Assembly: GCA_031421055.1 (NCBI GenBank)
Contig: JANONY010000064.1
Coordinates: forward strand, 1-40,936
Length of the DNA stretch: 40,936 bases
DNA from: Actinomycetes bacterium
Lineage (GTDB): Bacteria; Actinomycetota; Actinomycetes; Actinomycetales; Microbacteriaceae
Direction: 5' to 3'
Part shown: positions 7,603 through 21,964 of the stretch, one piece after another
How the letters are laid out: every line of letters begins with the position of its first letter
Numbering within the stretch: the first letter of the stretch is position 1
Program-made: the position numbers and the translations under genes
Notes under the pieces: model-generated
What the model was told of the DNA's origin: nothing
Databases searched by the model: none
Seen by the model: only the letters and a program-made list of their open reading frames with translations

Positions 7603-7617
7603 CCCATCGCGCCTGCT

Positions 7618-7695
7618 GAAAACGCAGGAGATTCTCGCCGTTTAGCGCCGTTCTCACTCAAGACGCGCCATTGGGCGAGATTCTCCTGCGTTTTC
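7618..7695. repeat. 78-bp inverted-repeat element, copy 1
   Basis: GAAAACGCAGGAGATTCTCGCC (7618-7639) and GGCGAGATTCTCCTGCGTTTTC (7674-7695) are 21/22 complementary. The 12-bp core arms are 54 nt apart. Confidence 0.92.
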
Positions 7696-8611
7696 GTGTG
7701 CGCGCGCGATAGGGGTGCGCGCGGCGATAGGCCGACAGCGCACGGTCGTCGCCGATGGCGCGGTGAACGGCGGCAAGCACACGCGGCCAGTCCGAGTAGA
7801 GCTGGCGGTAGGTGAATCGAAGCGTGCGCCCACCATCGATCGCAACAGTGGTGTCGCGATCGTGATCGCGCTCCCACGTGCTCGGCGTGTCTCCCGTCCA
7901 CAACGGGTCGTGCTGCCCACCGTCGATCTCGACGTAACTGCATTGCCCGAGCTGGAAGTCGATCCATCCAACGCCTTCCACGAACACCTGCTGCTTGAGA
8001 CGTAGGCCCGCGTCCAACGTCCAGAGCCGAAAGAAGGTTTCGCCGTGGGAGTCGTCGAGAGCACTCGGTAGCTGCCGCCAACGTTGTGCGCGATCGGGTG
8101 CTGCGGCGAAAACCCTGGCCAGCGCAGCGTGGGTGATCTTTCGATGGCGCAGAGCGGCGCTGCAGCAGGCGACCGCCACATCCCGAGTCTCGGTGGAAAG
8201 CACCGCGAGCAACGCTGCACCAACGGACACGCGCCACGGCGTACCGCCAGAGGCGGTGCCGCTCCAGTACACAGTCACCGAGTCGCCGGTGAGCAGGCGC
8301 GCACGGCGATCGATCGGTCGCCGCAGACGGCTCGCAGTCGGTTTTACCTCGACGTGCAGGTTCGGCTGACGAGGCACGCGTAGCCCAAGATCTTCGAGCG
8401 CGCTGAACGAGGTGAGCCGCCCACCGATGCGAACCGCCAGAACCCCGGCGGATGAGGCACCCTGCACCGAATACCACCCCTGTCGCACCCGAAATATGCG
8501 CCGATCACGCAGCGCTCGCTGAATCGCGCCGTCGGAGTACCCGCGTGCGAGCAGGTCGCGTCGCCGCAGGAAGAACCCGTTGCGGCGGATGACCCTCTCG
8601 ATCGGAAGCAT
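7658..8611 (-). CDS. AbiEi-like wHTH / DUF559 (Vsr-like) endonuclease-domain protein
   Basis: N-terminal RRRDLLARG...FRVRQGWY (AbiEi_4-type wHTH) and GGRLTSFSAL. C-terminal DSHGE, QQV, IDF, VEIDGGQH, DHDRD and LRFTY match the DUF559/Vsr-type pattern. Confidence 0.8.
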   Translation of the reverse strand: MLPIERVIRRNGFFLRRRDLLARGYSDGAIQRALRDRRIFRVRQGWYSVQGASSAGVLAVRIGGRLTSFSALEDLGLRVPRQPNLHVEVKPTASRLRRPIDRRARLLTGDSVTVYWSGTASGGTPWRVSVGAALLAVLSTETRDVAVACCSAALRHRKITHAALARVFAAAPDRAQRWRQLPSALDDSHGETFFRLWTLDAGLRLKQQVFVEGVGWIDFQLGQCSYVEIDGGQHDPLWTGDTPSTWERDHDRDTTVAIDGGRTLRFTYRQLYSDWPRVLAAVHRAIGDDRALSAYRRAHPYRARTRKRRRISPNGAS

Positions 8612-8695
8612 GCAGGTAGCATGCGGCGCTCGCGCGCCCCTCAGCGTCGCTTCTCACGAGTTGTGCACGCGCGACCTCCCTGCGGAGTAGTGACC

Positions 8696-8773
8696 GAAAA
8701 CGCAGGACTCTCAGCCTCGATTGACCGAAACGGCCCCAAAGAGTCACCGGCAGCCAATAGTTCCTGCGTTTTC
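8696..8773. repeat. 78-bp inverted-repeat element, copy 2
   Basis: GAAAACGCAGGA (8696-8707), a 54-nt spacer, then TCCTGCGTTTTC (8762-8773). Confidence 0.9.
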
Positions 8774-8809
8774 AGAGCGAGCGCAGCGGCGCGAGCGGTG
8801 CGCGGGGCG

Positions 8810-19380: not shown

Positions 19381-21852
19381 ATGGCTACTCCCTCAGACAC
19401 CCCGGTCGAATCCATCGGTGAGCGCATCGAAGACGTCGATGTCTCGACCGAAATGCAGAGCTCATTTCTCGAGTACGCGTACTCCGTCATCTACTCGCGT
19501 GCGCTTCCTGACGCCCGTGACGGGCTCAAGCCAGTGCAGCGGCGCATCCTGTTTCAGATGTCAGAAATGGGGCTTCGTCCAGACAAGGGGCACGTCAAAT
19601 CGGCTCGCGTCGTTGGCGACGTCATGGGCAAGCTGCATCCGCACGGTGACGCGTCCATCTACGACGCGATGGTTCGCCTCGCCCAGGACTTCATCCTGCG
19701 CGTGCCGCTTATCGACGGGCACGGCAACTTCGGCACTCTCGATGACGGTCCGGCCGCCGCCCGCTATACCGAGACGCGACTCAGTGCCGCCGCCCTAGCT
19801 CTTACCGAGAACCTCGACGAGAACGTCGTCGACTTCGTGCCCAACTACGACAACTCGCTTGAGCAGCCGTCTGTCTTGCCTGCCGCGTTTCCCAACCTCT
19901 TGGTCAATGGGGCCTCCGGCATCGCCGTCGGCATGGCGACCAATATGGCGCCGCACAACCTCATCGAGGTGGTCGGAGCTGCACGCTTTCTGCTGGATAA
20001 CCCACGGGCTTCGCTAGAAGAGCTGATGGCCTTCGTGCCAGGCCCCGACCTGCCGACAGGCGGCACGATCATCGGCCTCGACGGCATCAAAGACGCCTAC
20101 GCGAGCGGTCGCGGCGCCTTCAAGACCCGCGCCCGCGTGTCGGTCGAGGCGATCTCCGCGCGCAAGACCGGACTGGTCGTCACCGAGCTCCCTTACCTCG
20201 TGGGCCCAGAGAAGGTCATCGAGAAGATCAAGGACGGCGTCAACTCGAAGAAGATCAGCGGCATTTCGGATGTGACTGACCTGACCGACCGCAAACACGG
20301 CCTGCGCCTGGTCATCGGCATCAAGACCGGATTCAGCCCAGACGCGGTGCTAGAGCAGCTCTACCGACTGACGCCGCTCGAAGACAGTTTCAGCATCAAC
20401 AATGTCGCACTCGTCAACGGTGGCCCGCGCACGCTTGGGCTTCGCGAACTTCTGCAGGTCTACATCGATCACCGTCTTCAGGTCGTGACTAGGCGCTCGC
20501 AGCACCGGCTCGCTCGCCGTCAGGAGCGGCTGCACCTCGTGCTCGGGCTGCTCATTGCGATTCTCGACATCGACGAGGTGATTCAGGTCATCCGGGGCTC
20601 CGACGACGCTGACGCCGCGCGCCTTCGCCTGCGCGAGGTATTCGATCTGAGCGAGATCCAAGCCGAGTACATTCTTGAGTTGCGGTTGCGGCGCCTGACA
20701 AAATTCAGCCGCATCGAGCTTGAGAAAGAGAAGCAGCAACTCGAGAAAGAGATTGCAGAACTGGAGGCGCTGCTTGGCGACCCGAAGAAGGTGCGCAAGC
20801 TGGTCTCGCGCGAGCTTGACGACGTCGCTGAGCGCTTCGGAACGCCGCGACGCACTCTGCTGACCGAAGCGCGCCCCTCGGTCGCCACGACCGGCTCTGC
20901 TTCGCGCAAGGTCGCACCGGTGCTGGAGATCGCGGATGCGCCATGCCGCGTGTACTTGTCGACGACAGGGCGGGCTATTCGGGTTGACGACAGCGTCGAC
21001 CAGACACGGGATGAGCTCGCCACTCCCCGCGCCCGTCGCCGCACAAAGCACGATGGGATTCGATCGGTGCTCACGACGACCGCGCGCTCAGAGATCGGCG
21101 CCGTGACGAACCTCGGCCGCCTCATTCGCTTCACCGCCGTTGACCTGCCGAACGTTCCAGAGAACTCGATTCAGCTCGCCGCGGGTGCAAAGATCGGCGA
21201 CTATTTGGCGATCGGTAACAAGAAGGAGCGCGTGCTTGCACTTGTTTCGCTCGACTCTGACCAGCCGATTGCCATCGGCACACGCCAGGGCGTGGTCAAA
21301 CGCATCGCGCCAGGCACGTACCCGCCCCGCCCCGAATTCGAGATCATCGCCCTCAAGCCGGGTGACGAAATTGCAGGAGTCTCGCAGGGAAGCGACGCTG
21401 ACGAACTCGTTTTTGTCACATCCGATGCACAACTCCTTCGTTTTGGTGCGGCGCAGGTTCGGCCGCAGGGCCCGTCTGCGGGCGGCATGGCCGGCATCAA
21501 TCTCGGCGCGAAGGCTAGCGTGATCTTCTTCGGCGCCGTCGACCCTGCGGCGGATGTGGTGGTCGCGACTGTCTCGTCGTCGACTTCAACCATCGCCGGT
21601 GCCGACCCCGGTCGCGCAAAGGTCTCAGCGCTTAGCGAGTTCCCGGCGAAGGGCCGCGCTACCGGCGGAGTGCGCGCGCACTCGTTCCTCAAGGGCGAAG
21701 ACGTGCTCGCGCTCGCGTGGGCAGGCACGGCTCCCGCTCTGGCGGTCGGCGCCGACGGCTCACAACGACAGCTGCCAGAGAGCGGCGCCAAGCGCGACGC
21801 CTCTGGCACGCCCGTCGAGAGTCCGATCGGGTCGATCGGCGTCAGCCTCTAG
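19381..21852 (+). CDS. parC: DNA topoisomerase IV subunit A (second GyrA/ParC paralog of actinobacteria)
   Basis: [21 protein letters not shown] and AAARYTE (catalytic Tyr). Degenerate C-terminal pinwheel without a canonical GyrA box. Confidence 0.88.
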
Positions 21853-21886: not shown

Positions 21887-21964
21887 GAAAACGCAGGAGA
21901 TTTTCGCTCCACGCGCACGAAGCGCATCCCGAGACGCGATTTGGAGAGAAAGTCCTGCGTTTTC
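21887..21964. repeat. 78-bp inverted-repeat element, copy 3 (solo)
   Basis: CTGAAAACGCAGGA (21885-21898), a 54-nt spacer, then TCCTGCGTTTTCAG (21953-21966). Lies between convergent parC and the esterase gene. Confidence 0.92.

What the first reader, a model, noticed from the sequence alone, without database searches (positions are those of the whole stretch)
7611..8777. Orphan AbiEi/DUF559 nuclease gene bracketed by fixed-length 78-bp palindromic elements: candidate REPIN/RAYT-like system with a different enzyme
Seen: three elements (7618-7695, 8696-8773, 21887-21964) share identical 12-bp arms GAAAACGCAGGA and TCCTGCGTTTTC. All have exactly 54 nt between the arms although the spacer sequences diverge. 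Copies 1 and 2 flank one 317-aa gene with an N-terminal wHTH and a C-terminal DUF559/Vsr-like nuclease pattern. In copies 1 and 3 the left arm also forms a REP-like mini-hairpin, CCTGC-TGAAAAC-GCAGG. Known: REPINs are fixed-spacing inverted doublets that flank their RAYT (HUH) transposase and disperse into intergenic sites, often between convergent genes. Inference: conserved arms and conserved geometry point to a protein recognising paired sites, and the enclosed nuclease-domain protein is the obvious candidate. No HUH or DDE transposase and no integrase lies nearby.
Basis: partly seen in the sequence, partly recalled or inferred. Interest (0 to 1): 0.88.

Follow-up and report, generated by a model that had tools for sequence, protein, structure and literature searches.

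The report
Nuclease whose sites overwrite host genes
A gene for a predicted DNA-cutting protein sits between two paired DNA sites of fixed spacing, and in related bacteria that carry the gene the same paired sites also stand inside ordinary host genes, formed by letter-for-letter substitution rather than insertion, which points to a likely new kind of selfish element that rewrites host DNA into its own predicted binding sites.

Summary
Observation confirmed and extended. The 12-bp arm pair with a 54-56 nt spacer is a genome-wide family (15 copies here). Among 151 Microbacteriaceae genomes it occurs in 9: the 8 holding a close homologue of the enclosed gene plus one relic. Other paralogues carry their own arms and spacing. 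The protein is an AbiEi (winged helix plus C-terminal domain) fused to a Vsr/EDxHD nuclease with an intact active site, predicted to dimerise through the nuclease domains. It is not a REPIN/RAYT member: no HUH enzyme, arms are not REP hairpins, and the spacer carries 10-bp phased A/T, as in bent duplex sites. The main surprise: in purK, mtlD, hrpA, parC and an SDR gene the doublet aligns gap-free with site-less orthologues. The spacer is host coding sequence and the arms arose by substitution, amino-acid changes included (purK: 4 or fewer mismatches in 8 of 10 gene-bearing genomes, 1 of 46 others). Whole-element in-frame insertions also occur (mutM, hemE). Best model: dimer binding, central nicking and biased repair write and keep the sites. 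No binding or cutting has been shown. I found no description in print.

The parts
7618..7695 (.). Downstream doublet: 12-bp inverted arms, 54-nt spacer; overlaps the last 38 nt of the gene
   Evidence: folds as a long hairpin, spacer z -2.3
7658..8611 (-). 317-aa AbiEi-Vsr (DUF559/EDxHD-type) fusion gene, P0001
8054..8611 (-). Residues 1-186: AbiEi-like winged helix (1-51) plus C-terminal domain; predicted arm reader
   Evidence: Foldseek 6y8q E 3.9e-6; Z 6.7, rmsd 4.6, 174 aligned; PADLOC AbiEi hits in 32 of 35 family members
7715..8053 (-). Residues 187-299: Vsr/EDxHD nuclease domain (E191, D218, E228, D230, H234, D249); predicted dimer interface
   Evidence: 3r3p Z 12.6, rmsd 2.9, 96 aligned; 1cw0 Z 10.1, rmsd 3.3, 105 aligned; conservation; homodimer model
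8696..8773 (.). Upstream doublet, 84 nt before the start codon; position of an AbiEi-type operator
   Evidence: spacer does not fold on its own, z +1.05
21367..21445 (.). Degenerate doublet (55-nt spacer) formed in place inside the topoisomerase A-subunit gene (19381-21852; 'parC' is my label from recalled gene order)
   Evidence: 3 mismatches here, 10-12 in 9 of 9 orthologues, all gap-free
21887..21964 (.). Solo doublet between the convergent topoisomerase and carboxylesterase genes
   Evidence: no such doublet after the same stop codon in 9 relatives; in 3 of them the next gene ends at once

Best explanation
The elements are paired 12-bp sites at a fixed 54-56 bp spacing that the enclosed AbiEi-Vsr fusion protein likely binds as a dimer, and repair after its predicted central nick likely writes these sites into host DNA, keeps them near-perfect and occasionally copies them. 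Shown by sequence: (1) each gene clade has its own arm and spacing, and the doublets occur where that clade occurs; (2) in rigid host genes the arms arise by substitution around an unchanged-length host spacer, track the genome's own arm variant and are mostly absent where the gene is absent; (3) in tolerant places (gene ends, protein loops) whole doublets are inserted or locally duplicated. Predicted by structure: two monomers lie tail to tail, winged helices on the arms, DNA bent over 10-bp phased A/T tracts, nuclease domains meeting at the centre. Inferred: a nick at the centre starts repair synthesis running outward over an arm; heteroduplexes that bind the dimer better are nicked more often, so the better-binding letter is kept (a ratchet toward the consensus). 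Rarer breaks repaired on a neighbouring doublet would give copies with ragged ends, and two flanking doublets would let the gene itself move now and then. My odds: protein-site coupling about 0.9; gene-dependent in-place rewriting about 0.85; this nick-and-biased-repair mechanism about 0.5.
For: Co-occurrence: pattern in 9 of 151 genomes = own genome + all 7 with best P0001 E <=1e-72 + G128; reversed control 0. Prediction test: the GACGGA arm read from three gene flanks occurs in 6 of 151 genomes (G068 73, G103 17, G133 7, G008 6, G048 6, G039 1), none shared with the 9; the first four hold the matching protein clade. Six paralogue families with own arm and spacing in this genome. Four-arm layout at 32 of 42 family loci and 13 of 29 class-wide loci against controls 0 of 26 and 1 of 29. 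In-place substitution: purK 55 nt in 56 of 56 orthologues, <=4 mismatches in 8 of 10 gene-bearing vs 1 of 46 others, in genomes whose flanking GC3 is up to 0.98; mtlD 1 mismatch in 2 vs 7-12 in 29; hrpA 0, 0, 2 vs 7-9 in 4; SDR 3 vs 10-15 in 13; parC 3 vs 10-12 in 9; all gap-free. purK arms follow each genome's variant, including R->Q in G153. In-place upkeep: 13 of 15 copies here have <=1 mismatch while 0 of 105 spacer pairs are alike; orphan half-sites at chance level. Duplex geometry: A/T period 10 bp, power 22.8 vs shuffle maximum 0.53; purK spacer A/T gains fall mostly on the phased positions. Nuclease-less short paralogue has an upstream doublet with a 20-25 nt spacer in 3 of 5 genomes, close to AbiEi's 27 nt (PMC3985639). 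Active site conserved. Homodimer model through residues 230-299: score 0.56, best control 0.16, runs agree in >=77% of contacts, pLDDT >=85; the mark was reached by 20 of 30 solved pairs and 1 of 23 single chains.
Against: No binding, nicking or repair bias was measured. Purifying or positive selection on binding gives the same sequence pattern. Having the gene does not guarantee a site: purK has 8 and 11 mismatches in G084 and G110; G156, G153 and G050 lack the parC site; this genome lacks the hrpA site. Sites persist without a detected gene in G128, G048, G039, and partly in G076 and G152. The purK tree does not exclude a single origin, so its carriers are not independent. This genome's parC and SDR cases are weaker (2 seen, about 0.04 per distance expected) and its GC3 is lower than its relatives'. 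Two of three window spacers fold as hairpins (z -2.3, -2.6) and 26% of 243 spacers have z < -2, which leaves room for a single-strand step. Spacers are not hypervariable between strains, so frequent mutagenic cutting is unlikely. The first steps from about 11 mismatches would have little binding to act on. The dimer score may come from likeness to solved Vsr-type dimers and used my own alignment.
Confidence: 0.5

Rival explanations
1. REPIN-like replicators with a new enzyme: the protein excises or copies whole doublets, probably through a hairpin or cruciform, and copies persist by birth and death; the in-gene sites are a side effect of binding under some separate selection.
For: RAYT-like layout: single chromosomal gene, no phage or plasmid hit, next to manA in 10 of 13 close-homologue genomes. 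Net in-frame insertions: mutM loop 38-46 aa with a doublet (6 rows) vs 11-21 aa without (6 rows); hemE +44 aa. Near-identical neighbours in G116 (5 of 561 pairs), G110 (10 of 210), G084 (5 of 10). Convergent 39 vs divergent 7 contexts by a crude gene caller. Some spacers fold.
Against: Does not explain arms on host spacers in five genes. Old orthologous copies keep perfect arms while spacers turn over (mutM in G000 and G153). No excess of decayed relics. Arms are not hairpins. Duplicates have ragged ends and I saw no target duplication.
Confidence: 0.18
2. Host-beneficial binding: the protein is a domesticated regulator or nucleoid organiser, and ordinary selection builds and keeps its sites; the upstream doublet is an AbiEi-type operator and the nuclease is incidental.
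For: AbiEi binds an 11-bp inverted repeat with a 27-nt spacer and represses its own promoter (PMC3985639, passages). Left and right arms of in-gene sites differ from each other and fit coding constraints, as stepwise affinity selection would give. Vertical position beside manA.
Against: Sites avoid divergent (promoter) regions and sit mid-gene in unrelated enzymes. The gene is patchy, relocates and has up to 7 paralogues per genome, each with private sites. Catalytic residues are kept at about 30% identity. Copies cluster near the gene in G116 (21 of 42 on a 132-kb contig), G028 (10 of 32 on 45 kb) and G050 (8 of 14 in about 110 kb).
Confidence: 0.15
3. Harm avoidance: the nuclease cuts loosely bound near-cognate doublets but not perfect ones, so host selection pushes trapped sites, such as those in conserved codons, to the perfect state.
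For: Bimodal mismatch spectrum: 13 copies at 0-1, none at 2, two at 3; in-gene sites lie where the protein already favours one arm (xLRF-like codons).
Against: Site-less orthologues sit at 7-16 mismatches, so escape by synonymous change was open. Half-sites are not depleted. Does not explain whole-element insertions.
Confidence: 0.13
4. Chance, base-composition drift or assembly artefact.
For: The genome is a fragmented assembly (397 contigs) with lower GC3 than its relatives.
Against: the cassette and both doublets are spanned by an independent contig of run X6.
Confidence: 0.02

Closest known systems
REPIN-RAYT systems (bioRxiv 10.1101/2021.07.10.451892, section 4 and passages; PMC3733652, section 16 and passages)
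   Same: Single chromosomal gene flanked by inverted doublets with conserved arms and variable spacer; solo copies; paralogue-specific repeats; mostly extragenic.
   Different: Enzyme is AbiEi-Vsr, not HUH/Y1; arms are not small palindromes; spacing is fixed to +/-1 nt with 10-bp A/T phasing; sites also form by substitution inside conserved genes; the gene has moved between loci.
AbiEi antitoxin of AbiE type IV toxin-antitoxin systems (PMC3985639, passages; PDB 6y8q, 1zel)
   Same: Winged helix plus C-terminal domain fold; inverted-repeat pair with a fixed spacer upstream of its own gene.
   Different: Fused to a nuclease; no AbiEii partner beside it; spacer twice as long; second doublet at the 3' end and many elsewhere.
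EDxHD homing endonuclease I-Bth0305I (PMC3239194, passages; PDB 3r3p)
   Same: Vsr-like catalytic domain; homodimer through the nuclease domains with outer DNA-binding domains over about 60 bp.
   Different: No intron or intein; AbiEi instead of NUMOD; specificity lies in the outer arms, not the centre; the site is gained beside and away from the gene rather than destroyed by insertion.
DNA uptake sequences of Pasteurellaceae and Neisseria (PMC2817400, abstract only)
   Same: A protein-recognised motif accumulates in place inside coding sequence and changes host proteins.
   Different: Here a 24-bp bipartite site with fixed geometry, a few to 73 copies, tied to one nuclease gene; no known uptake step.
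Vsr very-short-patch repair (PDB 1cw0; its tendency to create its own short motif is recalled, from no call)
   Same: Same nuclease fold; precedent for nick-directed repair that enriches a motif.
   Different: No methyltransferase gene among the scanned window ORFs; long bipartite site read by a separate domain.
Small stand-alone DUF559 nucleases with hairpin repeats
   Same: DUF559 gene between palindromic repeats; solo copies; in-frame insertions into host genes.
   Different: As summarised, those are small nucleases with hairpin ends; none shown mentions an AbiEi fusion or arms formed by substitution.

Membership tests
REPIN-RAYT | Flanked gene is an HUH/Y1 tyrosine transposase | tested here: not met
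   Fold is AbiEi plus Vsr; PF01797 found in 1 of 5 doublet-bearing genomes, on a 1954-bp contig without these arms
REPIN-RAYT | Each arm is a short (~14 bp) palindrome | tested here: not met
   12 of 480 half-sites
REPIN-RAYT | Inverted doublet, conserved arms, variable spacer | tested here: met
REPIN-RAYT | Almost exclusively extragenic | tested here: inconclusive
   18 of 214 tested lie in coding-like frames (12 of 13 scanned hit Pfam); one search found further purK cases that this filter missed
REPIN-RAYT | Single-copy chromosomal gene, same locus, absent from plasmids | tested here: met
   No phage or plasmid match; beside manA in 10 of 13 close-homologue genomes; but beside fadB here and in G156
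REPIN-RAYT | Enzyme duplicates the doublets | not testable with these tools
   Needs experiment
AbiE type IV toxin-antitoxin | AbiEi winged helix plus C-terminal domain | tested here: met
AbiE type IV toxin-antitoxin | Bicistron with AbiEii nucleotidyltransferase toxin | tested here: not met
   Neighbours are fadB-like, an unknown ORF and dxs; PF08843 in 2 of 5 genomes, never on the gene's contig
AbiE type IV toxin-antitoxin | Binds and represses an upstream inverted repeat | not testable with these tools
   Upstream doublet is in place; no sigma-70-type promoter found by the simple scan
EDxHD homing endonucleases | Vsr-like domain with E, D, H, D catalytic motif | tested here: met
   Z 12.6, rmsd 2.9, 96 aligned to 3r3p; E191, D218, H234, D249 conserved; residue correspondence is by pattern and spacing, not by superposition
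EDxHD homing endonucleases | Encoded in an intron or intein and cuts the empty allele | tested here: not met
   Free-standing intergenic gene; no arm-like target seen at the fadB 3' end in 7 cassette-less relatives
EDxHD homing endonucleases | Homodimer through the nuclease domains | tested here: inconclusive
   Prediction only: 0.56 vs best control 0.16, interface 230-299
MITE / IS with terminal inverted repeats | Defined ends, target-site duplication, cognate DDE transposase | tested here: inconclusive
   Ragged ends and no duplication seen by eye, but empty sites were only about 75-80% identical; no transposase among 29 scanned window ORFs; DDE families not searched genome-wide
DNA uptake sequences | Motif accumulates in coding sequence by substitution | tested here: met
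DNA uptake sequences | Hundreds to thousands of copies and biased DNA uptake | tested here: not met
   1-73 copies per genome; uptake itself not testable
Vsr very-short-patch repair | Nicks T:G mismatches; gene paired with a cytosine methyltransferase | tested here: inconclusive
   No methyltransferase among 29 scanned window ORFs; activity not testable

The most novel reading that the evidence does not exclude
A widespread actinobacterial selfish gene whose nuclease drives its own 78-bp recognition geometry into the host chromosome by biased repair, rewriting codons of core metabolic genes and updating them when its specificity changes: a site-gaining drive, the reverse of enzymes that erode their own targets.
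Probability: 0.45. Interest if true: 0.95.

Novelty: categorically new. Interest (0 to 1): 0.86.

Why it matters
It gives a function and a readable target to a large family annotated as hypothetical, DUF559, AbiEi-domain or very-short-patch endonuclease (98 of 151 Microbacteriaceae genomes; 38 of 151 across the class). It shows host proteins changed in place by a DNA site tied to one gene, a route to amino-acid change that would be mistaken for adaptation. Each paralogue's target can be read from its own flanks, so binding, cutting and repair bias are directly testable, and the family may supply long-site nucleases with natural specificity variants.

Tried and rejected
Hypermutable spacer from self-cutting: not seen in four runs (2 of 40 listed differences fall in the copy-1 spacer, none in arms or the copy-2 spacer; 49 rows not shown). 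Empty-site joints in other strains: none across the cassette; at 85% likeness was too noisy to use. No RNA holder listed, no evidence either way. Depletion of lone half-sites: none. Dispersed sites for the nuclease-less paralogue: inconclusive, short pattern, 1-6 hits vs 0-3 in controls. Independent origins of the purK site: tree unresolved, quick method only. manA linker as insertion: lengths vary too much in site-less genomes. An apparent exact 26-codon insertion (L086) proved intergenic and was dropped. L012 was a self-match and is not counted. Rfam: one chance hit, E 4.8. NCBIfam: no family for P0001. PDB by sequence: only 3hrl, E 0.016. (self-comparison) was uninformative. Family size among cluster representatives: job still queued, no result. 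Arm-to-arm copying as the source of in-gene arms: rejected as general cause, since left and right arms differ at up to 4 positions. Ten paper searches found no description.

Full report
OBSERVATION. The six arms are exact and far beyond chance (6 matches, 0.26 expected). Each pair encloses 54 nt. The ORF at 7658-8611 (-) encodes 317 aa with weak AbiEi_4 and DUF559 hits below the curated cut-offs; it ends inside copy 1. The window is contig C64 of a 2.39-Mb, 397-contig genome whose homologues are named Microbacteriaceae by their sources.

A GENOME-WIDE FAMILY WITH FIXED GEOMETRY. Allowing 4 mismatches over both arms, 15 inward pairs lie at 54 or 55 nt and 3 at all other distances up to about 190 nt. 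Eight have 0 mismatches, five have 1, none has 2 and two have 3. None of 105 spacer pairs is alike. Lone half-sites are at chance level (12 vs 13.5 expected at 1 mismatch). A/T peaks recur at positions 1-4, 13-14, 23-25 and 33-35 from each end; the period is 10 bp (power 22.8, shuffle maximum 0.53). Self-complementarity of the spacer is only modestly above the between-copy baseline (median z -1.08, 26% below -2). Two of the three window spacers do fold, one does not, nor does the parC copy. I read this as a bent duplex site, with a single-strand step not excluded.

SITES FOLLOW THE GENE. In 151 family genomes P0001 has relatives in 98. The doublet is in 9 of 151: this genome, all seven with best E <=1e-72 (3-42 copies) and G128 (2 copies, no close homologue found). 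The next clade has a GACGGA arm at its flanks. Searching that arm found it in 6 of 151, disjoint from the 9; four hold the matching clade, G048 and G039 had no such homologue found. Arm type clusters on the protein tree (6 changes, shuffled mean 11.8; quick tree; kin share labels, so this is not proof of co-evolution). Doublets on both sides were found at 32 of 42 family loci (9 misses, 1 self-match dropped; some loci recur between calls, so I do not add counts) and 13 of 29 loci across the class, against controls 0 of 26 and 1 of 29. This genome has five further paralogue families, each with its own arm, spacing and 2-11 copies; one faces outward. Copies cluster near the gene in G116, G028 and G050 but are spread widely in G068. 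The gene lies beside manA in 10 of 13 close-homologue genomes (coordinates), beside fadB here and in G156, and is missing from the fadB site in 7 relatives. No phage or plasmid record matched. A Y1 transposase was found in 1 of 5 doublet-bearing genomes, without these arms; AbiEii was never on the gene's contig.

THE PROTEIN. The model is confident (mean pLDDT 89.8). Residues 1-186 match AbiEi (6y8q, E 3.9e-6; 1zel) and 187-299 match the I-Bth0305I catalytic domain (Z 12.6), 3hrl (11.7) and Vsr (10.1). D218, E228 and H234 are invariant in 88 close homologues, and E191, D218 and E228 in 35 diverse ones. AbiEi binds 11-bp inverted arms 27 nt apart (PMC3985639, passages). I-Bth0305I is a homodimer through its nuclease domains, footprinting about 60 bp (PMC3239194, passages). 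A homodimer of P0001 scored 0.56 against a best control of 0.16, with the interface in residues 230-299, runs agreeing in at least 77% of contacts and pLDDT at least 85; the mark was reached by 20 of 30 solved pairs and 1 of 23 single chains, and may reflect likeness to solved dimers. A short paralogue lacking the nuclease has an upstream doublet with a 20-25 nt spacer in 3 of 5 genomes. Together these predict winged helices on the arms and nuclease domains at the centre.

THE SURPRISE: ARMS WRITTEN IN PLACE. The degenerate copy at 21367-21445 lies in the topoisomerase gene. Nine orthologues align gap-free with 10-12 mismatches to the arm pair, against 3 here; the changes include V->I, V->A and H->R and use A/T-ending codons. 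In purK the spacing is 55 nt in 56 of 56 orthologues examined (the 30 best matches to a site-bearing query, 5 genus relatives, 20 picked by hand from 149 matches, and the query). Mismatches are 1, 1, 1, 1, 1, 3, 4, 4, 8, 11 in the 10 gene-bearing genomes and 7-16 in 43 of 46 others; the exceptions are G128 (1), G076 (5) and G152 (5). G028 and G116 carry the A/T-ending arm codons although their flanking GC3 is 0.97-0.98. The arm follows the genome's own variant: GCAGG-type in G156 and G135, GAAGG-type in G028, G050, G116 and G031, and in G153 the variant of its gene flanks, at the cost of R->Q. This genome's purK keeps a GAAGG-type arm although its gene flanks are GCAGG-type. mtlD (1 mismatch in 2, 7-12 in 29), hrpA (0, 0, 2 vs 7-9 in 4) and an SDR gene (3 vs 10-15 in 13; orthology uncertain) behave alike, all gap-free. 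Nine metagenome purK loci carry the site too. Against: gene-bearing genomes often lack a given site, and the purK tree does not exclude one origin.

INSERTION ALSO OCCURS. The mutM loop is 38-46 aa with a doublet (three different families, 6 rows) and 11-21 aa without (6 rows); hemE of G103 has 44 extra residues against this genome's. Near-identical neighbours with ragged shared flanks exist in G116 and G110. The mutM copies of this genome and G153 keep perfect arms and a 59-nt spacing while their spacers no longer resemble each other by eye, so upkeep acts on each copy where it stands. Strains of the same species show no hypervariable spacer and no joint across the cassette.

MECHANISM. Shown: coupling of clade and site, in-place substitution, tracking, insertion. 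Predicted: dimer geometry. Inferred: a central nick followed by outward repair synthesis, more frequent on better-binding heteroduplexes, would ratchet sites toward the consensus, much as uptake sequences accumulate in coding DNA (PMC2817400, abstract) and as very-short-patch repair enriches its motif (recalled). Rarer breaks repaired on a neighbouring doublet would give copies. Sequence alone cannot separate this from selection on binding or from harm avoidance; the rivals and their tests are listed separately.

COMPARISON AND NOVELTY. It is organised like REPIN-RAYT (bioRxiv 10.1101/2021.07.10.451892, passages and section 4; PMC3733652, passages and section 16) but fails two defining tests. 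It is not an AbiE pair and not an intron-borne homing endonuclease. Ten full-text searches gave no description of this gene-repeat link or of in-place arm formation; the library lacks most subscription papers, I read no supplements, and PMC3424549 was seen only as a listing. PMC2267715 (passages) lists unexplained 72-92 bp repeat families in a mycobacterial genome; I did not test whether they belong here. This scan's own unchecked notes hold 156 findings on DUF559 with palindromes (8 shown), so the broad link has been noticed within the scan; look-ups for the AbiEi fusion, for substitution in host genes and for this sequence returned nothing.

VERDICT. Categorically new in its combination; interest 0.86. 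The mechanism is a committed inference at about even odds.

Noticed in passing
L046, L048-L051 (fadB 3' end in G151, G152, G155, G042, G157): Five of seven cassette-less relatives carry a different palindromic repeat (GAGCCTGTCGA-like) at the same fadB 3' site; a similar remnant seems to sit in the mutM loop of G042.
   Followed up: no
G000:C125:958 (mutM), C328:6123, manA, an FGGY kinase, adenosine deaminase: The same protein loops host doublets of different arm families in different genomes: insertion hot spots, or one family rewritten into another.
   Followed up: partly
G000:C191:3794-4900 and five solo or flanking copies: One paralogue family has outward-facing arms and two spacer classes (53-54 and 64-65 nt).
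   Followed up: no
G000:C211:6849-7390 and C393:1-330: A short nuclease-less paralogue stands directly before a dapA-like gene and reads in frame into it in G000 and G034; a small array of its arm lies upstream.
   Followed up: partly
window 7658-7695: The conserved K307-R308-R309 tail of the protein is the arm read in frame, so its conservation may be at the DNA level.
   Followed up: no
P0001 residue 44 (window 8480-8482): In the winged-helix wing, Q goes with the GCAGGA arm in 8 of 9 loci and H with GAAGGA in 7 of 9; a candidate specificity residue, confounded by kinship.
   Followed up: no
G110:C63:7900, C100:12931; G116:C1:14259-14303: Extra single arms lie 21, 32 or 34 bp from doublet arms, roughly in helical phase.
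   Followed up: no
G128:C1:2007546, C2:74756, C2:85307: Three copies of a doublet with a fixed 26-nt spacer; its gene was not traced.
   Followed up: no
G000:C391:3047 and G050:C4:377748: Doublets at the orthologous intergenic site in two genera, with unlike spacers; in G000 one arm is still of the GAAGGA type, as is purK, both near the manA region where relatives keep the gene.
   Followed up: partly
G000:C29:1494-1769: A Y1 transposase-family gene with its own upstream palindrome on a 1954-bp contig.
   Followed up: no
window 18089: All four runs laid lack 18 nt present in the window, inside the DUF3071 gene.
   Followed up: no
G000:C119 and C240; C55 and C58: Near-identical contig pairs, probably strain variants within the assembly; one C240-family copy may be counted twice.
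   Followed up: no
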